This document shows positions 1 through 11,335 of a stretch of 11,335 nt of DNA, piece after piece. Where the stretch lies: the IMG/VR virus record IMGVR_UViG_3300015174_000004, positions 1 to 11,335 of that record; one strand, given 5' to 3'. Below the pieces are notes generated by a model, which searched no databases, had not been told where the DNA came from, and saw only the letters and a list, made by a program, of their open reading frames with translations. Origin of the DNA: a virus (lineage: Duplodnaviria > Heunggongvirae > Uroviricota > Caudoviricetes). Numbering within the stretch: the stretch's first letter is position 1; each line of letters starts with the position of its first letter. Both the position numbers and the translations under genes were made by a program.

Positions 1-1077
1 GATGAATGGAACCAGCAGGAGGCCGCCCGCATTGCGACAGAAGCATACTCATCCTCAATGATCCAGCGCACCAACCAGATTAAAGAAAATCTTGGTTATC
101 TTGAGACTGCATGTAAAGCAGTCGCAAACTCCGCAAAATGGGCATGGGATTCCATGCTGGATATTGGCAGTGAGGCCTCCCTTGATCAAAAAATCTCAGA
201 TGTTCTACGTCAAATTGATGAAATAGAAAAAAATACCCGACCCGGAGTTTTCGGGTTAGGTGGCATTGGAGATGGCGGAGCTCAAAATAAAAAGCTGGCA
301 CGATTAAAGCAGCAATTGGGCGTACTTCAAGCAGAAAAAATTGCTCAGGACGTACTAAATTCATCAATAAACGATTACAACAAGCGACAACAGGAAGGAA
401 TTGAACTCAGACAGAGAGCAGATGCTTTTTCAAAACAATATCAGACCCGGGAGCAGCAGAGAGCTAGTGAACTTGCAAAACTGGAAAAGCTAAAGAATCA
501 GTATTCAAAGGAAGAATATAATAATCTTATCGCTCAAATAAATGAGCGTTATAAAGATCCAAAGCAACCAAAGGCGAAAGGTTATTCGGATGATGCTGCC
601 CAACGAGTGATTGATCATCTGAATCAACAGAATGCGTTACTAAGTTCACAAGCTGAATTGACCGTTAAATTAAGTTCCTCTGAACAGGAACTGGTTAAGT
701 GGCGTCAGCAGATTGCCGACCTGGAGTCACGACCGTCATCGAAATTAACCCAGGATCAGAAATCGCTTCTCTTACACCGGGAAGAAATAACCGCGTTGAT
801 GGAGAAAAATGTTGCGATTGAAAAAAATAACAGGCTAATCAAGGAATCCGCCGAAATAGCTGCATGGCGTGATTCATTGCAGGCTTCAATTGATAATCGT
901 CAGCAGGGGTATGATATTCAGATTGCTGGTTATGGGGTTGGCGATAAAAATCAGCAACGCCAGCAGGAATTACTGCGGATTGAACGTGAATATAACAATC
1001 AGCGTCTGCAACTTGAACGTGACTATGCAGATAAATCCCGTGGGATGTCAAATCATGTTTTTCAGGAGAAAATGTAG
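1..1077 (+). CDS. Phage tail tape measure protein, 5'-partial; reading frame is closed by an in-frame TAG at 1075-1077
   Basis: Frame 1 is open from base 1 (the gene starts upstream of the window). The translation is rich in Q/E/K/R with coiled-coil character, typical of tape measure proteins, and it sits immediately upstream of the M-L-K-I-J tail-tip genes. The region is AT-rich compared with L-J. Confidence 0.7.
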   Translation, partial: DEWNQQEAARIATEAYSSSMIQRTNQIKENLGYLETACKAVANSAKWAWDSMLDIGSEASLDQKISDVLRQIDEIEKNTRPGVFGLGGIGDGGAQNKKLARLKQQLGVLQAEKIAQDVLNSSINDYNKRQQEGIELRQRADAFSKQYQTREQQRASELAKLEKLKNQYSKEEYNNLIAQINERYKDPKQPKAKGYSDDAAQRVIDHLNQQNALLSSQAELTVKLSSSEQELVKWRQQIADLESRPSSKLTQDQKSLLLHREEITALMEKNVAIEKNNRLIKESAEIAAWRDSLQASIDNRQQGYDIQIAGYGVGDKNQQRQQELLRIEREYNNQRLQLERDYADKSRGMSNHVFQEKM

Positions 1078-1242
1078 GCTCTGAATGATGCTCTGGAACG
1101 AGAAAAAGAAATTGTCAGACAGAAAAACGAGCAGCTCGATATTCAGGCAGGAGACTGGGTTAGTGGTGCCTCCCAGGGATTCAATAACTGGCTGGATGAC
1201 ACTAAGGATATCAGTGAGCAGATAAAATCAACCACGACTCAG

Positions 1243-1812
1243 ATGTTTGATGGAATGACCGATGCGCTGGGTGATTTTGTCACGACAGGCAAGGCAAATT
1301 TTCGTTCTTTCGCTACTTCCGTGATTTCGGATCTTAGTCGAATAGCATTAAAGGCTTCAATTACTGGGATTTTCGACAGCATTAGTAACAGTTCTTCGGG
1401 GGGGATTTTAGGAACTATCGGGAGTGCTATTAGTAAATTTATTCCGAATGCAAAGGGCGGTGTTTATGAGTCTCCGTCATTGAACACGTATTCGAACGGT
1501 ATTTATGATTCCCCGCAATTTTTTGCTTTTGCAAAAGGGGCTGGTGTTTTTGGTGAGGCTGGTCCGGAAGCCATTATGCCATTAACACGAACTTCCGATG
1601 GTTCTCTTGGTGTCAGAGCTATTAATTGTAAAAGTGGTAATGGAGGCGGAGATATTACCTATGCCCCTGTATACCAAATCACTATTCAAAATGACGGCCA
1701 GAATGGAGAGATTGGCCCTCAGGCAATAAAAGCACTTATGGGGATGGTTGATCAGCGGGTGCAGGGCAATCTGTTAAATATGCGACGTGATGGGGGAATG
1801 TTAAGTGGCTAA
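1243..1812 (+). CDS. Tape measure protein C-terminal segment, same frame as 1-1077; the in-frame continuation actually begins at 1078 directly after the TAG
   Basis: Frame 1 has no stop from 1078 to the TAA at 1810-1812. The translation is Gly/Ser-rich and hydrophobic, as expected for a tape measure C-terminus. There is no Shine-Dalgarno sequence before the ATG at 1243, so independent initiation is unlikely. Together with 1-1077 this looks like one gene interrupted by one amber codon. Confidence 0.6.
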   Translation: MFDGMTDALGDFVTTGKANFRSFATSVISDLSRIALKASITGIFDSISNSSSGGILGTIGSAISKFIPNAKGGVYESPSLNTYSNGIYDSPQFFAFAKGAGVFGEAGPEAIMPLTRTSDGSLGVRAINCKSGNGGGDITYAPVYQITIQNDGQNGEIGPQAIKALMGMVDQRVQGNLLNMRRDGGMLSG

Positions 1813-2143
1813 TACGGAAGAATTTCACTGGTTACCAGAGGATGGAATGAAAACAGAAAATAAACCATCGATAAAAACTGTAAGATTTGGCGATGGTTAT
1901 GAGCAACGAAGTCCAAATGGACTTAATCATTCTCTGCGCGTTTTCACCTGTGATTTCAAAGTTGAGGCGAATGAACGTGATTCATTTGAAAAATTTTTAG
2001 CCCGGCATGAAGGCTATAAATCTTTTTTTTGGCGCCCGCCTGGTATTAACAGAAAAATCAGAGTGGTGTGTCGAACGTGGTCAGCGACAGAACATATCAC
2101 CTATACCGATTTTTCGTGTCAGTTTGACGAAGTGGTGATCTGA
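1805..2143 (+). CDS. M: Minor tail / tail-tip assembly protein, lambda gpM-like
   Basis: A 112-aa ORF with a GTG start at 1805, preceded by GGGGGAA, and overlapping the tape measure stop. It contains a VRFGDGY motif and has the size and position of lambda gpM. An alternative start is the ATG at 1847, which has a GAGGA upstream. Its stop TGA (2141-2143) overlaps the L start as TGATG. Confidence 0.75.
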   Translation: MANTEEFHWLPEDGMKTENKPSIKTVRFGDGYEQRSPNGLNHSLRVFTCDFKVEANERDSFEKFLARHEGYKSFFWRPPGINRKIRVVCRTWSATEHITYTDFSCQFDEVVI

Positions 2144-2841
2144 TGCAGGACATACAACAGGAAACGCTGAATGAATGCATTCGTGCGGAGCAGTCGGCCA
2201 GCGTGGTGCTCTGGGAAATCGACCTGACCGAGGTAGGCGGGGATCGCTACTTTTTCTGCAATGAGCAGAACGAGAAAGGAGAGTCTGTCACCTGGCAGAG
2301 TCGGCAGTATCAGGCCTATCCCATTCAGGGGAGTGGATTTGAGATGAACGGCAAAGGTGCCAGTGCAAGGCCAACGCTGAAAGTCTCTAATCTGCACGGC
2401 ATGGTCACCGGGATGGCGGAAGACCTGCAGAGTCTGGTCGGCGGAACGGTGGTCAGGCGTAAGGTTTACGCCCGTTTTCTGGATGCGGTGAACTTCGTCA
2501 ACGGAAACAGTGACGCCGATCCGGAGCAGGAGGTGATCAGCCGCTGGCGTATTGAGCAGTGCAGCGAACTGAGCGCGGTCAGTGCCTCCTTTGTACTGTC
2601 CACGCCGACGGAAACGGACGGTGCCGTTTTTCCGGGGCGCATCATGCTGGCTAATACCTGCACCTGGACCTATCGCGGTGATGAGTGCGGTTATCACGGT
2701 CCGGCGGTCGCGGATGAATATGACCAGCCGACATCCGAAATCACGAAGGATAAATGCAGCAAATGCCTGAGTGGCTGTAAGTTCCGCAATAATGTCGGCA
2801 ACTTTGGCGGCTTCCTTTCCATTAACAAACTTTCGCAGTAA
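2143..2841 (+). CDS. L: Minor tail protein L, lambda gpL-like
   Basis: A 232-aa ORF whose translation (MQDIQQETLNECIRAEQSASVVLWEIDLTEVGG... CSKCLSGCKFRNNVGNFGGFLSINKLSQ) matches lambda gpL as I recall it almost residue for residue. It includes the C-terminal Cys cluster. GC content rises abruptly at its start. Confidence 0.9.
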   Translation: MQDIQQETLNECIRAEQSASVVLWEIDLTEVGGDRYFFCNEQNEKGESVTWQSRQYQAYPIQGSGFEMNGKGASARPTLKVSNLHGMVTGMAEDLQSLVGGTVVRRKVYARFLDAVNFVNGNSDADPEQEVISRWRIEQCSELSAVSASFVLSTPTETDGAVFPGRIMLANTCTWTYRGDECGYHGPAVADEYDQPTSEITKDKCSKCLSGCKFRNNVGNFGGFLSINKLSQ

Positions 2842-2845
2842 TCCC

Positions 2846-3589
2846 ATGACAGAGACAGAATCAGCGATTCTGGCGCACGCCCGGCGATGTGCGCCAGCGG
2901 AGTCGTGCGGCTTCGTGGTGAGAACGTCGGAAGGGGAAAGATATTTTCCCTGCGTGAATATCTCCGGTGAGCCGGAGGATTATTTCCGGATGGCTCCGGA
3001 GGACTGGCTGCAGGCAGAAATGCAGGGTGAGATTGTGGCGCTGGTCCACAGCCACCCCGGTGGTCTGCCCTGGCTGAGTGAGGCTGACCGGCGGCTGCAG
3101 GTGCAGAGTGATTTGCCGTGGTTGCTGGTCTGCCGGGGGGCGATTCATAAGTTCCGCTGTGTGCCGCATCTCACCGGGCGGCGCTTTGAGCACGGGGTGA
3201 CGGACTGTTACACGCTGTTCCGGGATGCTTATCATCTGGCGGGGATTGAGATGCCGAATTTTCATCGCGGGGATGACTGGTGGCGTCACGGCCAGAATCT
3301 CTATCTGGATAATCTGGAGGCCACAGGGCTGTATCAGGTGCCGTTGTCATCAGCACAACCGGGCGATGTGCTGCTGTGCTGTTTTGGTTCATCGGTGCCG
3401 AATCATGCCGCCATTTACTGTGGTGACGGCGAGCTGCTGCACCATATTCCTGAACAACTGAGCAAACGAGAGAGGTATACCGACAAATGGCAGCGACGCA
3501 CACACTCCCTCTGGCGTCACCGGGCATGGCGCGAATCTGCCTTTACGGGGATTTACAACGATTTGGCCGCCGCATCGACCTGCGTGTGA
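2846..3589 (+). CDS. K: Tail-tip assembly protein K, lambda gpK-like, with an MPN/JAMM-type domain and an NlpC/P60-like domain
   Basis: A 247-aa ORF from the ATG at 2846, which lies 5 nt after the L stop. It has a JAMM-like motif (E...HSHPGGLPWLSEAD) and a papain-like Cys/His signature (TDCYTLF ... NHAAIY). A shorter alternative start is the ATG at 2990 (MAPEDW...). The six-frame ORF from 2771 overlaps L and is not the likely start. Confidence 0.8.
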   Translation: MTETESAILAHARRCAPAESCGFVVRTSEGERYFPCVNISGEPEDYFRMAPEDWLQAEMQGEIVALVHSHPGGLPWLSEADRRLQVQSDLPWLLVCRGAIHKFRCVPHLTGRRFEHGVTDCYTLFRDAYHLAGIEMPNFHRGDDWWRHGQNLYLDNLEATGLYQVPLSSAQPGDVLLCCFGSSVPNHAAIYCGDGELLHHIPEQLSKRERYTDKWQRRTHSLWRHRAWRESAFTGIYNDLAAASTCV

Positions 3590-4134
3590 AAACGGGGGCC
3601 GAAGCAGTCCGGGCGCTGACCACACAGCTTCCGGCGTTTCGTCAGAAACTGAGCGACGGCTGGTATCAGGTACGCATTGCCGGGCGTGATGCAGGTGAAA
3701 CTGAATTATCAGCCCGTCTTAATGAACCGCTGGCAAATGGTGCCGTGATCCACATTGTGCCGCGTCTGGCGGGAGCCAAAAGTGGCGGTCTTTTTCAGGC
3801 TGTGCTGGGGGCGGCGCTGATTGCGGTGGCATGGTGGAACCCTGCAGGTTGGTTGGGGGCTGCCGCAATTACAGGAATGTATGGTGCGGGGGCCAGTATG
3901 GTGCTCGGTGGTGTGGCGCAGATGCTGGCACCGAAAGCCAGAACTCCCCGTACACAGACAACGGATAACGGCAAACAGAACACCTATTTCTCCTCACTGG
4001 ATAACATGGTTGCCCAGGGCAATGTTCTGCCGGTTCTGTACGGTGAAATGCGCGTGGGGTCACGGGTGATTTCGCAGGAGATCAGCACGGCAGATGAAGG
4101 AGATGGTGGTCAGGTTGTGGTGATTGGTCGTTGA
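3487..4134 (+). CDS. I: Tail-tip assembly protein I, lambda gpI-like
   Basis: A 215-aa ORF with GAGAGAGG upstream of its ATG. It has a hydrophobic Gly/Ala-rich central segment and a C-terminus (YGEMRVGSRVISQEISTADEGDGGQVVVIGR) that resembles lambda gpI. It overlaps the 3' end of K by 103 nt in a different frame. Confidence 0.8.
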   Translation: MAATHTLPLASPGMARICLYGDLQRFGRRIDLRVKTGAEAVRALTTQLPAFRQKLSDGWYQVRIAGRDAGETELSARLNEPLANGAVIHIVPRLAGAKSGGLFQAVLGAALIAVAWWNPAGWLGAAAITGMYGAGASMVLGGVAQMLAPKARTPRTQTTDNGKQNTYFSSLDNMVAQGNVLPVLYGEMRVGSRVISQEISTADEGDGGQVVVIGR

Positions 4135-4151
4135 TGCAGAATGTTTTGTGT

Positions 4152-4173
4152 GAAACCGCCTCAGGGCGGTTTT
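4152..4173 (+). terminator. Perfect 8-9 bp hairpin (GAAACCGCC-TCAG-GGCGGTTTT) in the I-J intergenic spacer, followed by an interrupted T-tract; possible attenuator or RNA stability element
   Basis: The inverted repeat is read directly from the sequence between the I stop (4132-4134) and the J start (4195). The downstream T-run is interrupted (TTTTGTCGTTTCTGG), so termination would be partial at best. Confidence 0.3.
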
Positions 4174-4194
4174 GTCGTTTCTGGAGCGTGAGGA

Positions 4195-7100
4195 ATGGGT
4201 AAAGGCAGCAGTAAGGGGCATACCCCGCGCGAAGCGAAGGACAACCTGAAATCATCCCAGATGCTGAGCGTGATAGACGCCATCAGTGAAGGGCCGATTG
4301 AAGGTCCGGTGGACGGATTAAAAAGTGTGCTGCTGAATAGTACGCCGGTGCTGGACAGTGAGGGGAATACCAATATCTCCGGTGTCACGGTGGTGTTCCG
4401 GGCCGGTGAGCAGGAGCAGACACCGCCGGAGGGATTTGAATCCTCCGGCTCCGAGACGGTGCTGGGTACGGAAGTGAAGTACGACACGCCGATTACCCGG
4501 ACCATCACGTCTGCAAACATCGACCGTCTGCGCTTTACCTTCGGTGTGCAGGCACTGGTGGAAACCACCTCAAAGGGGGACCGGAATCCGTCGGAAGTCC
4601 GCCTGCTGGTTCAGATACAGCGTAACGGTGGCTGGGTGACGGAAAAAGACATCACCATTAAAGGCAAAACCACCTCGCAGTATCTGGCCTCGGTGGTGGT
4701 GGATAACCTGCCGCCGCGCCCGTTTAATATCCGGATGCGCAGGATGACGCCGGACAGCACCACAGACCAGCTGCAGAACAAAACGCTCTGGTCGTCATAC
4801 ACCGAAATCATCGATGTGAAACAGTGCTACCCGAACACGGCACTGGTCGGCGTACAGGTGGACTCGGAGCAGTTCGGCAGCCAGCAGGTGAGTCGTAATT
4901 ATCATCTTCGCGGGCGCATTCTGCAGGTGCCGTCGAACTATAACCCGCAGACGCGACAATACAGCGGTATCTGGGACGGAACGTTTAAGCCAGCATACAG
5001 CAACAACATGGCCTGGTGTCTGTGGGATATGCTGACCCATCCGCGCTACGGCATGGGAAAACGTCTTGGTGCGTCGGATGTGGATAAATGGGCGCTGTAT
5101 GTCATCGGCCAGTACTGCGACCAGTCGGTGCCGGACGGCTTTGGCGGCACGGAGCCGCGCATCACCTGTAATGCCTGGCTGACCACGCAGCGTAAGGCGT
5201 GGGATGTGCTCAGTGATTTCTGCTCGGCGATGCGCTGTATGCCGGTATGGAACGGGCAGACGCTGACGTTCGTGCAGGACCGACCATCAGATAAGGTGTG
5301 GACCTATAACCGCAGTAATGTGGTGATGCCGGATGATGGCGCGCCGTTCCGCTACAGCTTCAGCGCCCTGAAGGACCGCCATAATGCCGTTGAGGTGAAC
5401 TGGATTGACCCGAACAACGGCTGGGAGACGGCGACAGAGCTTGTTGAAGATACGCAGGCCATTGCCCGTTACGGTCGTAATGTCACGAAGATGGATGCCT
5501 TTGGCTGTACCAGCCGGGGGCAGGCACACCGCGCCGGGCTGTGGCTGATTAAAACGGAACTGCTGGAGACGCAGACCGTGGATTTCAGCGTGGGTGCTGA
5601 AGGGCTTCGCCATGTACCGGGCGATGTCATTGAAATCTGCGATGATGACTATGCCGGTATCAGCACCGGTGGTCGCGTGCTGGCGGTGAACAGCCAGACC
5701 CGGACGCTGACGCTCGACCGTGAAATCACGCTGCCATCCTCCGGTACCACGCTGATAAGCCTGGTTGACGGAAGTGGCAATCCGGTCAGCGTGGAGGTTC
5801 AGTCCGTCACCGACGGCGTGAAGGTAAAAGTGAGCCGTGTTCCTGACGGTGTTGCTGAATACAGCGTATGGGGGCTGAAGCTGCCGACGCTGCGCCAGCG
5901 ACTGTTCCGCTGCGTGAGTATCCGTGAGAACGACGACGGCACGTATGCCATCACCGCCGTGCAGCATGTGCCGGAAAAAGAAGCCATCGTGGATAACGGG
6001 GCGCACTTTGACGGCGACCAGAGCGGCACGGTGAATGGTGTCACGCCGCCAGCGGTGCAGCACCTGACCGCCGAAGTCACCGCAGACAGCGGGGAATATC
6101 AGGTGCTGGCGCGCTGGGACACGCCGAAGGTGGTGAAGGGCGTGAGCTTCCTGCTCCGTCTGACCGTAACAGCGGACGACGGCAGTGAGCGGCTGGTCAG
6201 CACGGCCCGGACGACGGAAACCACATACCGCTTCACGCAACTGGCGCTGGGGCGTTACACGCTGACAGTCCGGGCGGTAAATGCGTGGGGGCAGCAGGGC
6301 GATCCGGCATCGGTATCGTTCCGGATTGCGGCACCGGCAGCGCCTGTCACTATTGAACTGATACCAGGGTATTTTCAGATAACAGCGGTCCCGAAACTGG
6401 CTGTATATGACCCGACGGTGCAGTTTGAGTTCTGGTTCTCGGAAAAGCGGATTACCGATATCAGGCAGGTTGAAACCAGCGCGCGTTATCTTGGTACGGC
6501 GCTGTACTGGATAGCCGCCAGTAGCAATATTAAGCCGGGTTATGATTATTACTTTTATATCCGCAGCGTGAACACTGTTGGTAAATCGGCATTTGTGGAG
6601 GCCGTCGGTCGGGCGAGCGATGATGCGGAAGGTTATCTGAATTTTTATAAAGGGTTGATCAATAAAACGCATCTCGGCAAGGAACTGCTGGAAAACTTTG
6701 AGCTGACGGAAGATAACGCCAGCAAACTGGAGGAGTTTTCGAAAGAGTGGAAGGACGCTAACGATAAATGGAATGCCATGTGGGGCGTCAAAATTGAGCA
6801 GACCAAAGACGGCAAACATTATGTCGCGGGTATTGGCCTCAGCATGGAGGATACGGAGGAAGGCAAACTGAGCCAGTTCCTGGTTGCCGCTAACCGTATC
6901 GCGTTTATTGACCCGGCAAACGGGAATGAAACGCCGATGTTTGTGGCGCAGGGCAACCAGATATTCATGAACGACGTGTTCCTGAAACGCCTGACGGCCC
7001 CCACCATTACCAGCGGCGGTAATCCTCCGGCATTTTCCCTGACACCGGACGGGCGGCTGACGGCGAGAAATGCTGATATCAGCGGTAACGTGAATGCGAA

Positions 7101-7608
7101 CTCCGGGACGCTCAATAATGTCACGGTAAATGAAAACTGTACGATTAAGGGCATGCTGGAGGCGAACCAGGTCAGAGGTGACTTCGTTAAAACTGTATCC
7201 AAATCATTCCCGAAAAAGGCTGGTACGTGGGGTAACACGGAAACACCAAACGGGACGGTTACAGTCACCATTTACGATGATCATAACTTTGACCGCCAAA
7301 TCATTATTCCGCCCATTATTTTTAACGGTGTGGCGTATGACGATCCGGGGAGCGGTAATAACCCGGGAGGTACGCGATACACGGGTTATGGTTTTGAAGT
7401 TCGCAAAAATGGCGTATTAATCGCATCCAGAGAAACTAAAGGAGCCATTCCCGGTAGTTACAGTGCGGTTATTGATATGCCGAGTGGTGGTGGTAACGTC
7501 ACTCTGGAGTTTAAGATTTTCCAGAAAGGCAATCAGGGCGCAGGTAACATCACAGACTGTACGGTGATTGTGACCAAAAAAGCTGCTTCCGGTATCAGTA
7601 TCCGTTGA
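4195..7608 (+). CDS. J: Host specificity protein J (central tail fiber / tail tip), lambda gpJ-like
   Basis: A 1137-aa ORF with GGAG 8 nt upstream of its ATG. Its size, position after I, and N-terminal and central sequence are typical of lambda J. The last ~1 kb is visibly more AT-rich, consistent with an exchanged receptor-binding region. Confidence 0.9.
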
Positions 7609-7629
7609 AATATTTATAACCCCAATACG

Positions 7630-7657
7630 GGCGCCAGAAATGGCGCCTTTTTTATTT
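7630..7657 (+). terminator. Rho-independent terminator downstream of J
   Basis: GGCGCC-AGAAAT-GGCGCC forms a perfect GC-rich stem and is followed by TTTTTTATTT. It begins 22 nt after the J stop. Confidence 0.65.
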
Positions 7658-7668
7658 GTGGAGTGAGT

Positions 7669-10041
7669 ATGGCAGTACAGATTTCAGGTGTGCTGAAAGA
7701 TGGTGCGGGAAAACCAATACAGAACTGCACTATTCAACTGAAGGCAAAGCGTAACAGCACCACGGTACTGGTGAACACGGTGGCCTCTGAAAATCCGGAT
7801 GAAGCCGGGCGTTACAGCATGGATGTTGAGTATGGCCAGTACAGCGTTATCCTGCTGGTTGAAGGTTTTCCGCCTTCACATGCCGGAACCATTACCGTCT
7901 ATGAAGGTTCCAGACCAGGTACGCTGAATGATTTTCTCGGTGCCATGACGGAAGATGATGTCATGCCGGAGGCATTGCGTCGTTTTGAGGCAATGGTGGA
8001 AGAAGCGGCACGCAACGCTGAAGCCGCCTTTCAGAGCGCAGCGGCGGCAAAGAAATCCGAAGCTGCTGCGGCATCATCGAAGAACGCGGCGAAAAGCTCA
8101 GAAACGAATGCAGCTAACAGCGCACAGGCGGCAGCGGCCTCACAGACTGCATCGGCAAACTCCGCGACAGCAGCCCAAAAATCAGAAGCCAACGCGAAAA
8201 ATAGCGAAACAGCCGCAAAGACGAGCGAAACCAACGCGAAGTCCAGCCAGACGGCAGCGAAAACCAGCGAAACGAATGCCAAAGTCAGTGAAACTGCAGC
8301 GAAAAACAGCCAGGCTGCAGCAGCTGAAAGCGAGAGCGCAGCAGCCGGTTCTGCGACTTCAGCAGCTGGATTAGCAACTGCTGCGGCTAACAGCCAGAAA
8401 GCTGCGAAGGCGAGCGAAACTAACGCAAAGTCCAGCCAGACGGCAGCGAAGACCAGCGAAACGAATGCCAAAGCCAGCGAAACTGCGGCGAAAAGCAGTC
8501 AGGATGCAGCAGCCGAAAGCGAGAGTGCTGCAGCTGGTTCTGCAAGCGCGGCGGCTGCTTCTGCCACTGCATCAGCTAACAGTCAAAAAGCAGCAAAAAC
8601 CAGTGAAACCAACGCAAAGGTGAGCGAAACAGCGGCTGCGAACTCAGCGAAAGCATCGGCAGCAAGCCAGACGGCAGCTAAAGCAAGCGAAGATGCAGCC
8701 AGAGAGTACGCAAGCCAGGCTGCGGAGCCGTATAAATATGTCTTACAGCCGCTGCCTGATGTGTGGATACCATTTAACGATTCGCTGGATATGATTACGG
8801 GCTTTTCGCCGTCATATAAAAAGATTGTTATTGGTGATGATGAAATAACGATGCCTGGCGACAAGGTTGTTAAGTTTAAACGCGCATCGAAAGCAACCTA
8901 TATTAATAAATCTGGTGTGCTGACAGAGGCTGCCATTGACGAGCCACGGTTTGAACGTGATGGCCTGCTTATTGAGGGGCAAAGAACGAACTACATGCTC
9001 AATTCGGAAAGCCCTGCCAGTTGGGGGCGATCGTCAAATATGGATGTGCCCGAAACCGGGACGGATAGTTTTGGTTTTACCTATGGAAAGTTTGTCTGTA
9101 ACGATTCTCTGATTGGGCAAACCTCAGCCATTAATATGGCATCAATTGCTGCAACAAAGTCAGTTGATGTCTCAGGCGATAATAAACACGTGACAACCTC
9201 ATGTCGTTTTAAAACAGAACTGCAGGTAAGGTTGCGTATCCGGTTTGATAAATATGACGGTAGCGCAACAACTTTTCTTGGTGATGCGTATATTGATACA
9301 CAAACGCTTGAAATTAATATGACAGGCGGTGCTGCCTCAAGGATTACAGCGAGAGTCAGAAAGGACGAAGCTACCGGATGGATTTTTGCAGAGGCAACAA
9401 TTCAGGCAATTGATGGGGAGTTAAAAATAGGTTCTCAGATACAGTATTCTCCTAAGCAGGGCGGGGCAACCGTATCTGGTGACTATATTTATCTGGCCAC
9501 CCCACAAGTAGAAAATGGGCCTTGTGTATCATCTTTTATTATATCAGGAACGACGGCGGCGACCCGCGCAAGCGATATAGTTACAGTTCCAATTAAGAAT
9601 AATCTTTATAATCTTCCTTTTACGGTTCTTTGTGAGGTACATAAGAACTGGTATAAAACGCCAAATGCAGCGCCGCGTGTTTTTGACACCGGCGGTCATC
9701 AAACCGGAGCGGCTATTATTCTTGGCTTCGGTTCTTCAGCAGATTACGACGGATTTCCTTATTGCGATATTGGAGGAGCTAACAGACGGGTAAACGAAAA
9801 CGCATCGCTTGAAAAAATGGTTATGGGGATGCGTGTAAAGTCAGATCAGTCTACGTGCTCAGCAAGTAACGGGCGTATATCCAGCGAAACAAAAACCACA
9901 TGGTCCTGTATTCAGAACACCGCAATTATCCGTATTGGAGGCCAGACTACAGCCGGGTTACGTCATTTATTTGGTCATGTCAGGAATTTCAGAATATGGC
10001 ACAAGGCATTGACTGATGCTCAGGTGGGGGAGTCAATCTAA
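7669..10041 (+). CDS. stf: Side tail fiber protein: Stf-like N-terminus, Ala/Ser/Thr-rich repeat shaft, and a C-terminal domain with a LamG/concanavalin-like signature
   Basis: The ATG at 7669 is preceded by GGAG (7660-7663). The N-terminus (MAVQISGVLKDGAGKPIQNCTIQLKAKRNSTTV...GRYSMDVEYGQYSVIL) resembles lambda Stf. The middle is built from 7-aa repeats. The C-terminus ends in ...LFGHVRNFRIWHKALTDAQVGESI, which looks like the terminal strand of a LamG-like jelly-roll; this is a motif-level inference. The six-frame track starts at GTG 7663, but the ATG at 7669 is more likely. Confidence 0.85.
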   Translation: MAVQISGVLKDGAGKPIQNCTIQLKAKRNSTTVLVNTVASENPDEAGRYSMDVEYGQYSVILLVEGFPPSHAGTITVYEGSRPGTLNDFLGAMTEDDVMPEALRRFEAMVEEAARNAEAAFQSAAAAKKSEAAAASSKNAAKSSETNAANSAQAAAASQTASANSATAAQKSEANAKNSETAAKTSETNAKSSQTAAKTSETNAKVSETAAKNSQAAAAESESAAAGSATSAAGLATAAANSQKAAKASETNAKSSQTAAKTSETNAKASETAAKSSQDAAAESESAAAGSASAAAASATASANSQKAAKTSETNAKVSETAAANSAKASAASQTAAKASEDAAREYASQAAEPYKYVLQPLPDVWIPFNDSLDMITGFSPSYKKIVIGDDEITMPGDKVVKFKRASKATYINKSGVLTEAAIDEPRFERDGLLIEGQRTNYMLNSESPASWGRSSNMDVPETGTDSFGFTYGKFVCNDSLIGQTSAINMASIAATKSVDVSGDNKHVTTSCRFKTELQVRLRIRFDKYDGSATTFLGDAYIDTQTLEINMTGGAASRITARVRKDEATGWIFAEATIQAIDGELKIGSQIQYSPKQGGATVSGDYIYLATPQVENGPCVSSFIISGTTAATRASDIVTVPIKNNLYNLPFTVLCEVHKNWYKTPNAAPRVFDTGGHQTGAAIILGFGSSADYDGFPYCDIGGANRRVNENASLEKMVMGMRVKSDQSTCSASNGRISSETKTTWSCIQNTAIIRIGGQTTAGLRHLFGHVRNFRIWHKALTDAQVGESI
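8221..8598 (+). repeat. Two tandem 189-bp (63-aa) imperfect direct repeats inside stf, each built from nine 21-bp (7-aa) sub-repeats; degenerate copies extend from about 8040 to 8700
   Basis: Unit 1 (8221-8409) encodes TSETNAKSSQTAAKTSETNAKVSETAAKNSQAAAAESESAAAGSATSAAGLATAAANSQKAAK. Unit 2 (8410-8598) encodes ASETNAKSSQTAAKTSETNAKASETAAKSSQDAAAESESAAAGSASAAAASATASANSQKAAK. A third, partial unit starts at 8599. Confidence 0.8.
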
Positions 10042-10322
10042 TGAAAGATTTAACACTCAAATTTGAAGACAGGGCCGACTTTTCGGCCTTTATGGAGAGT
10101 ATTGGCTATTATGATGACGAGTCGATGCAGGATGATATTCTTATCGACGTGATAGGTAACGCGTACAAAGAAACCGGAGAACTGACTGAAGATGGCGAAC
10201 CGGTATGTGTTAAGGAAGACGGATATTTTGTAAACGTGCGCATCATTAATGATTCGCAAATATCGTCATTATTCGATGAGTACGTGGTTGCTGTTGAGCA
10301 TCAACTTCGTGGCTGGATGTGA
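10041..10322 (+). CDS. Hypothetical small, highly acidic protein (93 aa) of unknown function, translationally coupled to both neighbours
   Basis: Its ATG overlaps the stf stop as TAATG (10039-10043). Its TGA stop (10320-10322) lies inside the Shine-Dalgarno sequence (GAGGAAG) of the next gene. It has roughly 22 Asp/Glu against about 8 basic residues. I recognise no homologue. Confidence 0.55.
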   Translation: MKDLTLKFEDRADFSAFMESIGYYDDESMQDDILIDVIGNAYKETGELTEDGEPVCVKEDGYFVNVRIINDSQISSLFDEYVVAVEHQLRGWM

Positions 10323-10331
10323 GGAAGAAAA

Positions 10332-11268
10332 ATGGCTACATCGACAGTAATTCCTGATGACATCAAAACGCTAAAATCCGACGTTAGCAAATTAAAAAAC
10401 GATCAAGGAAGCTACGCAACAAAATTATATGTAGACAGCAAAGATGAAATCGTTGGTGACTGGTCTGCTTCATGGTATCAGCAGGTATTGCCAACTAGCG
10501 GAGCTATATTTGGGAGAAAACTCCGCTCAACTCACAGGACGGCAGGTGTTGAGGATGCGTATTGCGAACTATACCTCAAAAAATGGATAGACAGTCCAGG
10601 TAACGCAATGGCGCGCCTTAACCTGAACGATAACGGGACAAACATTTGCTGGGACTTTACCAACCTTTATGGCGGTACGATGATTTTTCCCGGTGACAGC
10701 GGATACCTCAAAATGGGTAACTGCCTTATGTCATACAGCAAGCGTGGAAGTAACGCGCTTATTAAATTTGATTACACCGACACATTACAGATCAAATATG
10801 CCAATCATGGGTCAACCATTACATTAAACACACAGGTAACCGCTTATGCTGGTGTTACTGCTCAATTGTGGGGCAACTCCAGCCGTCCTGTTGTTTATGA
10901 AGTCGGTGTTGATGGTGGCGCTTATATGTTCTATGCGCAGAAAAATACCGATAACACCTATATGTTAAGCGTTAATGGTGCATGTCATGCCACAGCATTT
11001 AACCAGCATTCAGACCGGGATCTGAAAGACAACATTCAGGTGATCGATAAAGCAACCGACCACATCCGTAAAATGAACGGCTATACATACACGCTTAAAG
11101 AAAACGGTATGCCCTATGCTGGTGTCATTGCACAGGAAGCTCTGGAAGCAATCCCAGAAGTTGTAGGTTCCGCAATGAAATATCAGGACGGTGCAAGCGG
11201 ATCGGAAGGTGAAGAAGGTGAACGTTATTACACAGTAGATTATTCTGGTGTTACTGGCTTGCTTGTTC
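10332..11268 (+). CDS. Short tail fiber / receptor-binding-like protein with a C-terminal intramolecular chaperone (peptidase S74-like) domain; 3'-truncated at the end of native sequence
   Basis: The ATG at 10332 follows GAGGAAG. The C-terminal region (HSDRDLKDNIQVIDKATDHIRKMNGYTYTL...YAGVIAQEALEAIPEVV) matches the hallmark of endosialidase/T5 pb1-type self-cleaving chaperone domains. It has a Ser-x4-Lys pair (S227 at 11010-11012, K232 at 11025-11027). The apparent end of the ORF (IGRASCRERV, stop at 11301-11303) is encoded by adapter sequence, so the true C-terminus is missing. Confidence 0.7.
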
Positions 11269-11335
11269 AGATCGGAAGAGCGTCGTGTAGGGAAAGAGTG
11301 TAGATCTCGGTGGTCGCCGTATCATTAAAAAAAAA
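11269..11335 (+). other. Non-biological sequence: Illumina TruSeq adapter read-through (11269-11326) followed by a 9-nt poly-A (11327-11335)
   Basis: The 58 nt AGATCGGAAGAGCGTCGTGTAGGGAAAGAGTGTAGATCTCGGTGGTCGCCGTATCATT is the standard Illumina adapter-trimming sequence, which is the reverse complement of the universal P5 adapter. It is followed by nine A's at the contig terminus. Confidence 0.92.

What the first reader, a model, noticed from the sequence alone, without database searches (positions are those of the whole stretch)
11269..11335. Contig end is Illumina adapter plus poly-A; the last gene's apparent C-terminus and stop are artefacts
An exact 58-nt TruSeq adapter sequence and nine A's end the window. 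The ORF caller extended the last gene through the adapter to a TAG at 11301-11303, creating a spurious C-terminus (IGRASCRERV). The assembly was therefore not adapter-trimmed, which lowers confidence in other single-base features such as the amber codon. Any chimeric join would be near 11268.
Basis: partly seen in the sequence, partly recalled or inferred. Interest (0 to 1): 0.5.

Follow-up and report, generated by a model that had tools for sequence, protein, structure and literature searches.

The report
Sequencing adapter left on contig end
The last 67 bases of this E. coli prophage contig are a synthetic Illumina library adapter plus a run of A's, so the final tail-fibre gene looks complete but has lost its true last 33 codons to 10 fake ones and a fake stop; this is an ordinary, well-documented assembly artefact.

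Summary
Confirmed, and it is an artefact. Window 11269-11326 is an exact 58/58 match to the reverse complement of the TruSeq universal adapter. Bases 11327-11335 are A9.

The native part (1-11268) is the tail region of an E. coli lambdoid prophage, 99.9% identical to strain CH4796. In 15 related phage and E. coli records from GenBank/RefSeq, homology stops at 11270. AG at 11269-70 is shared by chance with the native CAG|GTA. All relatives continue GTAGCCAGAG.

The real gene is 1041 nt (346 aa, Peptidase_S74 chaperone domain). The window lacks its last 104 nt and reads ...LLVQ-IGRASCRERV* where relatives read ...LLVQ-VARESDDRITALEEENAELKQRLSAIEATLASK*.

A sibling MEGAHIT contig (ENA ERZ27315465 k141_221) starts at the same base. 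It ends in the same adapter plus A24, but 207 nt upstream. So the adapter marks library fragment ends, not a genomic feature.

In IMG/VR, 92 contigs carry the same adapter. It faces outward within 200 nt of the sequence end in 90 of 93 occurrences, nearly always followed by poly-A.

Nine substitutions found in no compared complete E. coli genome cluster within 450 nt of the contig ends and are mostly G>T or C>A. The ends are therefore error-prone.

The amber codon at 1075 is a real allele, identical in at least 12 complete genomes.

The parts
11269..11326 (+). Reverse complement of the 58-nt Illumina TruSeq universal (P5-side) adapter. This is the sequence a read 2 reads into after running off a short insert. 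It is synthetic, not genomic.
   Evidence: Exact 58/58 match. Homology to 15 relatives stops at 11270. The same 58-mer sits at outward-facing ends of 92 IMG/VR contigs.
11327..11335 (+).
   Evidence: In IMG/VR every adapter-terminated contig that has any tail continues with A's, or with one T and then A's, typically 6-18 of them. The sibling contig L101 has A24. The no-template explanation rests on general knowledge.
11269..11270 (+). AG shared by the adapter (AGATCGG) and the native sequence (CAG|GTAGCC). It makes the breakpoint ambiguous by 2 nt.
   Evidence: BLAST alignments to all relatives end at 11270.
10332..11268 (+). Native part of the last gene: the first 937 of 1041 nt of a prophage tail-fibre protein with a C-terminal Peptidase_S74 intramolecular-chaperone domain. 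It is truncated by the contig end.
   Evidence: 99.5% identical to E. coli genes annotated 'tail fiber domain-containing protein', 346 aa. Pfam PF13884 at residues 227-278, E = 1.6e-13.
11271..11303 (+). Ten spurious codons (IGRASCRERV) and a spurious TAG stop, all encoded by the adapter. They replace the true 33 codons VARESDDRITALEEENAELKQRLSAIEATLASK plus TAA.
10820..11062 (+). Five substitutions near the 3' end (10820 G>T, 10837 G>T, 11012 C>A, 11051 T>A, 11062 G>A), absent from every complete genome compared. They are probably errors. Position 11062 is where the adapter starts in the sibling contig.
   Evidence: The best identity among 598 E. coli records for 10780-11100 is 98.4%, which is these 5 mismatches.
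7..207 (+). Four substitutions near the 5' end (7 G>T, 114 G>T, 169 C>A, 207 C>A), absent from every complete genome compared but shared with the sibling contig. They are probably errors carried by shared reads.
   Evidence: The best identity among 706 E. coli records for 1-260 is 98.5%, which is these 4 mismatches.
1075..1077 (+). In-frame amber codon in the tape-measure gene (CAG in the closest relatives).
   Evidence: The segment 1040-1215 is 100% identical in at least 12 complete E. coli genomes. A1_136 is annotated 'internal stop'.
11200..11208 (+). Native GATCGGAAG, identical to adapter bases 2-10, lying 61 nt upstream of the junction. It is present in all relatives, so it is genomic. 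It is treated as a coincidence.
   Evidence: 0.0004 expected within 100 nt upstream on this strand. No mechanism linking it to the junction was found.

Best explanation
The window is a short-read metagenome or low-coverage contig, probably from MEGAHIT. It covers the tail module of an E. coli lambdoid prophage that in relatives lies next to sitABCD.

Its 3' end was built from one or a few reads of a library fragment whose insert ended at window base 11268. The insert was shorter than the read. The read therefore ran through the A-tail/ligation junction into the complement of the TruSeq universal adapter (58 nt) and then off the end of the molecule, where the base caller emitted A's. The reads were not adapter-trimmed, or not fully, and no better-supported native path continued past 11268. 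The assembler therefore kept this adapter tip as the contig end.

All three forward frames of adapter plus A's contain a stop codon. A gene caller therefore closes the truncated tail-fibre gene with 10 adapter-encoded residues and TAG. It reports a complete 323-aa protein rather than a partial one. The true protein has 346 aa, and the lost part is the C-terminal end of its intramolecular chaperone domain.

Shown: adapter identity, the junction, the true 3' end in relatives, recurrence of the artefact elsewhere, and the clustering of unique substitutions at the ends.

Inferred: short insert, low coverage, shared reads with the sibling assembly, an oxidative-damage or low-quality origin for the substitutions, and a 4-colour instrument (suggested by poly-A rather than poly-G).
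For: - **Adapter identity.** Exact 58/58 adapter match plus A9 at the very end of the window.
- **Junction.** The window aligns to E. coli CH4796 at 99.9% over 1-11268. In phage Tritos and 14 E. coli genome records, homology ends at 11270 and they continue GTAGCCAGAG... to a 346-aa product.
- **Sibling contig.** ENA ERZ27315465 k141_221 starts at the same base and is 99.88% identical over 1-11066. It ends in the same adapter plus A24, joined 207 nt upstream, and gives the same fake tail ...ATDQIGRASCRERV*. Two different junctions within one gene fit random fragment ends.
- **Recurrence.** In IMG/VR the 58-mer occurs in 92 contigs. Of 93 occurrences, 90 face outward within 200 nt of the end of the stored sequence, and wherever a tail is present it is A-rich. 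PMC11536531 reports the same thing for MGnify genomes: adapters concentrated at contig ends, on average about 10 bases from the end in the example assembly it describes.
- **Low-quality ends.** Nine substitutions absent from all complete genomes compared lie within 449 nt of the ends (P about 1e-10 if positions were uniform), and none lies in the central 9.6 kb.
- **Substitution spectrum.** Of the 17 changes unique to the window and/or its sibling, 13 are G>T or C>A. Between two natural relatives the count is 4 of 25. This is the spectrum described for oxidative library damage in PMC3616734.
- **Frames.** All three frames end in a stop.
Against: No reads are available, so coverage, insert size and the number of reads supporting the junction are all inferred.

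The window's own contig was not found in any searchable collection. Its assembler and its relation to the sibling contig are therefore not documented.

Seven of the nine 'private' substitutions are shared with the sibling contig. They could be true strain variants if the two assemblies are independent, though the shared first base and the G>T/C>A bias argue for shared reads.

Parts of the tail-fibre 3' region occur more than once in some E. coli genomes. A repeat could therefore have contributed to the break.
Confidence: 0.96

Rival explanations
1. The contig broke here mainly because the 3' part of the tail-fibre gene is a repeat shared with another prophage in the same genome or community. 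The adapter tip was simply what remained attached at the graph branch. Low coverage was not the cause.
For: From query position 876 (window 11207) onward the gene matches a different phage's tail-fibre gene at 96.8% (H11). Some E. coli genomes hold 2-5 places matching this gene. The window and its sibling differ at real polymorphic sites 1170 and 1194, which hints at more than one variant in the sample.
Against: The 214 nt spanning the break are single-copy in most genomes (median 1 place per genome). The last gene has 1 place in the closest relative, CH4796 (H18). The sibling contig breaks 207 nt upstream, in sequence that is also mostly single-copy (median 1). Error-like substitutions at the ends point to thin coverage.
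Confidence: 0.12
2. The adapter marks a true physical DNA end in the sample, for example a packaged or degraded molecule ending at 11268. No native continuation existed, and the position of the junction is biologically informative.
For: Contigs can run into adapter when all molecules stop at one base. The contig ends inside a phage tail module.
Against: The sibling contig has the adapter 207 nt upstream in the same gene, so there is no single fixed terminus. The site is mid-gene in a prophage that continues for another ~0.6 kb to sitD in all relatives. Lambdoid termini lie at cos, near the terminase genes, and not in tail-fibre genes (general knowledge).
Confidence: 0.02
3. The 58-mer is a genuine part of the organism's genome.
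For: None beyond its presence in the contig.
Against: It is an exact match to a synthetic oligonucleotide. It sits at the contig terminus facing outward and is followed by poly-A. It is absent at this site in 15 relatives. The junction is absent from three large collections. The same 58-mer ends 92 unrelated viral contigs.
Confidence: 0.003

Closest known systems
Illumina adapter read-through contamination at contig ends, as catalogued for MGnify genomes in PMC11536531 (BMC Genomics 2024) and screened for by NCBI VecScreen/FCS-adaptor (the latter from my own knowledge)
   Same: The same adapter family is involved, including the read-2-specific part CGTCGTGTAGGGAAAGAGTGT. It lies in forward orientation at the contig end, a few bases (here 9) from the last base. 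It truncates the assembly at that point.
   Different: Nothing essential differs. Three things are worked out here that the survey paper does not treat: the effect on a gene call (a false complete ORF), the recovery of the true 3' end from relatives, and a sibling assembly with a second junction in the same gene.
Adapter-encoded peptides in protein databases, such as the N-terminal MIRRPPRSTLFPYTTLFRS read from the other strand (recalled from my own knowledge; the translation is verified)
   Same: IGRASCRERV* is frame 3 of the same adapter. Frames 1 and 2 give RSEERRVGKECRSRWSPYH* and DRKSVV*. The sibling contig's last gene carries the same tail.
   Different: Here the adapter supplies a false C-terminus and stop rather than a false start. 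On the minus strand of this window the adapter ATG opens only a 24-codon ORF.
Phage tail fibres and tailspikes with a C-terminal Peptidase_S74 intramolecular chaperone domain (endosialidase-type; the closest solved structure by sequence is 6F45, a long tail fibre distal subunit)
   Same: The native gene has PF13884 at residues 227-278. It aligns to 6F45 over residues 215-333 (E = 8e-4), including an SDR-x2-K motif at the start of the domain.
   Different: This describes the underlying gene and not the finding. In the window the domain lacks its last 33 residues, which are present in all relatives.

Membership tests
Illumina TruSeq adapter read-through artefact | Sequence identical to a known synthetic adapter over its full length | tested here: met
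   58/58 match to the reverse complement of the TruSeq universal adapter at 11269-11326. About 3e-31 are expected by chance.
Illumina TruSeq adapter read-through artefact | Located at a contig terminus in outward orientation (insert, then adapter, then end) | tested here: met
   The adapter ends 9 nt before the last base of the window, on the + strand at the right-hand end. The same geometry holds for 90 of 93 IMG/VR occurrences and in PMC11536531.
Illumina TruSeq adapter read-through artefact | Homology to independent assemblies of the same locus stops at the junction, and those assemblies continue with native sequence | tested here: met
   All 15 relatives align only up to 11270 and continue GTAGCCAGAG....
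Illumina TruSeq adapter read-through artefact | Adapter followed by homopolymer base calls made past the end of the template | tested here: met
   A9 in the window, A24 in the sibling contig, and A runs after the adapter in the IMG/VR cases. That these are no-template calls rests on general knowledge.
Illumina TruSeq adapter read-through artefact | The junction is supported only by short-insert reads, and trimming followed by re-assembly removes it | not testable with these tools
   No reads are available. The junction is absent from three contig collections. The sibling assembly has a different junction.
Peptidase_S74 (intramolecular chaperone) tail-fibre proteins: the underlying gene | Pfam PF13884 match above the gathering score | tested here: met
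   51.2 bits against a cut-off of 22, residues 227-278. The match is unaffected by the artefact.
Peptidase_S74 (intramolecular chaperone) tail-fibre proteins: the underlying gene | Complete C-terminal chaperone domain running to the native stop | tested here: not met
   The window lacks the last 33 codons and the TAA that are present in all relatives. This is a truncation by the contig end, not a biological difference.
Peptidase_S74 (intramolecular chaperone) tail-fibre proteins: the underlying gene | Autoproteolytic release of the domain at a conserved serine (Ser-Lys dyad) | not testable with these tools
   The motif HSDRDLK is present and aligns with SSDRRIK of 6F45. Cleavage itself was not tested.

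The most novel reading that the evidence does not exclude
The most novel reading not strictly excluded is that the adapter junctions mark real, non-random DNA ends in the sample. The two junctions are at 11268 here and at 11061 in the sibling contig, both inside the tail-fibre chaperone domain and in the same reading frame. Such ends could come from fragments of a defective prophage packaged or released as short pieces. The artefact would then incidentally report physical termini.
Probability: 0.02. Interest if true: 0.3.

Novelty: not a real feature. Interest (0 to 1): 0.06.

Why it matters
There is no biological significance. The value is quality control.

1. The last gene should be treated as 3'-partial. 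Its protein (323 aa ending in IGRASCRERV) should not enter protein catalogues. The true product is 346 aa.
2. All three frames of this adapter contain a stop, so gene callers mark such truncated genes as complete. The suffixes IGRASCRERV*, DRKSVV* and RSEERRVGKECRSRWSPYH* are simple screens for the problem.
3. The roughly 200-450 nt next to both contig ends carry probable base errors and should not be used for variant or selection analysis.
4. The in-frame amber codon in the tape-measure gene survives this scrutiny and can be assessed on its own merits.

Tried and rejected
- **Finding the window's own contig.** The exact junction (46 nt) was searched in IMG/VR, the JGI metagenome contigs and the GTDB species genomes. 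There were no hits.
- **Looking up the spurious protein.** The 323-aa protein is not on record, so the window's own contig and sample could not be identified. Only the sibling contig ERZ27315465 k141_221 was found, through the 358-aa partial tape-measure product.
- **Looking for other adapter or PhiX remnants in the window.** None were found. One 13-nt PhiX match at 962-974 is chance.
- **Repeat-driven break.** The 214 nt across the break are single-copy in most genomes, so a repeat is not the main cause.
- **A role for the native GATCGGAAG 9-mer at 11200.** I considered false-positive trimming and a microhomology-mediated chimera. The junction is 61 nt downstream of the 9-mer. By my own recollection of their default settings (not run here), common trimmers would not cut at a 9-nt internal match. 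I treat it as coincidence.
- **Literature on poly-A after adapters.** Nothing citable turned up.
- **An out-of-register comparison.** The ungapped comparison of CH4796 with AHB5 was out of register and is disregarded.

Full report
**1. Observation**

The last 67 bases of the window read AGATCGGAAGAGCGTCGTGTAGGGAAAGAGTGTAGATCTCGGTGGTCGCCGTATCATT followed by AAAAAAAAA. An exact string comparison places the reverse complement of the 58-nt TruSeq universal adapter at 11269-11326 and A9 at 11327-11335. About 3e-31 such matches are expected by chance.

The ORF list gives 10332-11303 (323 aa) as the last ORF. Its translation ends ...YSGVTGLLVQIGRASCRERV*.

No other adapter, primer or adapter-like 13-mer occurs in the window.

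**2. What the native DNA is**

Window 1-11268 is the tail module of an E. coli lambdoid prophage. In order it holds:

- the 3' part of the tape-measure gene
- the minor tail proteins
- the C40 peptidase and the tail assembly protein
- gpJ
- an stf-like fibre with a phage_tail_N domain
- a 93-aa ORF
- a tail-fibre gene with a Peptidase_S74 chaperone domain

The window is 99.9% identical to E. coli CH4796 and 99.6-99.8% identical to HYM1, T-HYM1 and TUM9803. It is about 96% identical to phage Tritos over 2191-11270. In the chromosomal relatives the prophage ends about 0.6 kb further on, next to sitDCBA.

**3. The junction and the true gene end**

The window was compared with phage Tritos and 14 E. 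coli genome records. In every one the alignment stops at 11270, and the relative continues GTAGCCAGAGAGTCAGACG....

A11269 and G11270 belong to the adapter. By chance they are also the next two native bases (CAG|GTA). The breakpoint is therefore 11268-11270, and Q313 is right by accident.

In relatives the gene is 1041 nt and 346 aa. The window lacks the last 104 nt. The true C-terminus is ...LLVQ-VARESDDRITALEEENAELKQRLSAIEATLASK*. The Pfam match (residues 227-278) is untouched. What is lost is the end of the chaperone domain, which aligns with the C-terminal part of structure 6F45.

**4. Why it is an artefact and how it arose**

The sequence is a synthetic oligonucleotide in the orientation expected for read-through: insert, then adapter, then end of molecule.

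Three comparisons support a library and assembly origin.

(a) A sibling contig exists: ENA ERZ27315465 k141_221, a MEGAHIT-style name, 11,143 nt.
- It begins at the same base as the window and is 99.88% identical over 1-11066.
- It also ends in the same adapter, followed by A24, but the adapter starts at window-equivalent 11062, 207 nt upstream.
- Its last gene is closed by the same fake tail ...ATDQIGRASCRERV*.
- Two different junctions in one gene are what random fragment ends give. A genomic feature would not do this.

(b) The full 58-mer occurs in 92 IMG/VR contigs.
- Of 93 occurrences, 90 face outward within 200 nt of the end of the stored sequence.
- Wherever any tail follows, it begins with A's, or with one T and then A's, commonly 6-18 of them.

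(c) PMC11536531 describes the same thing in MGnify genomes. Adapters are concentrated at contig ends, about 10 bases from the end in the example assembly it details, and their reverse complements are at contig starts.

From general knowledge, a read that outruns a short insert reads the A-tail and adapter. On 4-colour Illumina instruments it then yields A calls once no template is left. This step is inferred and was not tested.

All three forward frames of adapter plus A's contain a stop: RSEERRVGKECRSRWSPYH*, DRKSVV* and IGRASCRERV*. A gene running into this adapter is therefore always closed and reported as complete.

**5. Quality of the rest of the contig**

Against CH4796 the window has 15 differences, and none lies between 1195 and 10819.

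Six differences (1065-1194, including the amber T1075) form a haplotype seen in other lineages. The segment 1040-1215 is 100% identical in at least 12 complete E. coli genomes, and 242 records are at least 99% identical. One of the identical genomes is A1_136, whose tape-measure gene RefSeq marks 'internal stop'. The amber codon is therefore a real allele.

The other nine differences are at 7, 114, 169, 207, 10820, 10837, 11012, 11051 and 11062.
- They occur in none of the E. coli genomes compared base by base.
- They are not reduced in any of about 600-700 complete genomes holding these segments. The best identities are 98.5% and 98.4%, which correspond exactly to these mismatches.
- All nine lie within 449 nt of a contig end (P about 1e-10 under uniformity, a post hoc figure).
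- Seven are G>T or C>A, and seven change the amino acid.

The sibling contig adds eight private changes of its own. Six of them are G>T or C>A, and one (9706) creates a stop that shortens the stf-like gene to 679 aa.

Taken together, 13 of 17 such changes are G>T or C>A. Between the natural relatives CH4796 and TUM9803 the count is 4 of 25. This is the spectrum reported for oxidative damage during library preparation (PMC3616734).

My inference is thin coverage and damaged or low-quality reads at the ends. Some reads are probably shared between the two assemblies, given the same first base and seven shared 'private' alleles. Position 11062, a 'private' A in the window, is exactly where the adapter's first A sits in the sibling contig. 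I cannot say whether that is cause or coincidence.

**6. Rivals**

- **Repeat-induced break.** This is possible in principle, because the 3' end of the gene from about 11207 is shared with another phage's fibre gene and some genomes hold several copies. However, the 214 nt across the break are single-copy in most genomes, and the last gene is single-copy in the closest relative, CH4796.
- **A real physical DNA end.** This is contradicted by the second junction in the sibling contig.
- **A genuine genomic 58-mer.** This is excluded for practical purposes.

**7. Comparison with what is known, and verdict**

This is a textbook case of adapter contamination at a contig end. The kind is already described in the literature (PMC11536531) and is screened for by sequence archives. 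It is not a biological feature.

Its specific doubt about the amber codon is not.

Practical consequences:
- Clip the window at 11268.
- Flag the last gene as 3'-partial.
- Distrust single-base calls in about the first 210 nt and the last 450 nt.
- Keep the amber codon as a genuine feature.

Interest is low.

Noticed in passing
window 1075-1077 (tape-measure gene, frame of 1-1812): There is an in-frame TAG where the closest relatives have CAG. It lies in a six-SNP haplotype (1065-1194). The 176-nt segment around it is 100% identical in at least 12 complete E. coli genomes and at least 99% identical in 242 records. RefSeq marks the tape-measure gene 'internal stop' in A1_136. I did not examine whether this widespread split tape-measure gene is a dead gene or still functions, for example by suppression or as two products.
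   Followed up: partly
L101 (ENA ERZ27315465 k141_221), whole contig; window-equivalent 11062: A sibling contig has the same first base as the window and the same adapter plus A24 joined 207 nt upstream. It carries eight private substitutions. One is G>T at 9706, which creates a stop and shortens the stf-like gene from 790 to 679 aa. This is probably the same library assembled from fewer reads.
   Followed up: yes
window 1170 and 1194, compared with L101: The window carries the alleles of the A1_136/AHB5 lineage at 1170 and 1194. The sibling contig carries the CH4796 alleles there, while both share 1065-1120. This suggests either two prophage variants in the sample or haplotype switching by the assembler. 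Linkage of the amber codon to the rest of the contig is therefore not guaranteed.
   Followed up: partly
window 11200-11208: Native GATCGGAAG equals adapter bases 2-10 and lies 61 nt before the real adapter. It is present in all relatives. About 0.0004 such matches are expected within 100 nt. I found no mechanism linking it to the junction. It could cause false-positive trimming by permissive trimmers.
   Followed up: partly
window 8179-8691 (stf-like fibre gene 7669-10041): There are tandem 21-nt-based repeats. Units of 27 nt such as AGCCAGACGGCAGCGAAAACCAGCGAA recur 9 times, and a 189-nt unit is duplicated at 82% identity. This looks like a repetitive shaft segment of the fibre.
   Followed up: no
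IMG/VR loci L015 (about 7655-7712), L042 (about 10373-10430) and L020 (about 14308-14365): In three IMG/VR contigs the adapter is internal. In L015 and L042 it is followed by a run of A's and then a run of T's. This looks like two adapter-terminated ends mis-joined through the homopolymer, which would make them internal chimeric joins in public viral contigs.
   Followed up: no
window 11325 down to 11254, minus strand: The adapter's complementary strand supplies an ATG and the peptide MIRRPPRSTLFPYTTLFRS, which runs into antisense native sequence for only 24 codons here. For a minus-strand gene at such a contig end, the same adapter would create a false start codon and a false N-terminus.
   Followed up: yes
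L003 15415-15847 and the equivalent in L002/L004 (downstream of the window's end): In relatives the truncated gene is followed by a 97-aa hypothetical gene and then a 120-nt remnant of a tail-fibre assembly gene. The sitDCBA iron/manganese transporter comes next. The window therefore stops about 0.6 kb short of the prophage's right boundary.
   Followed up: partly
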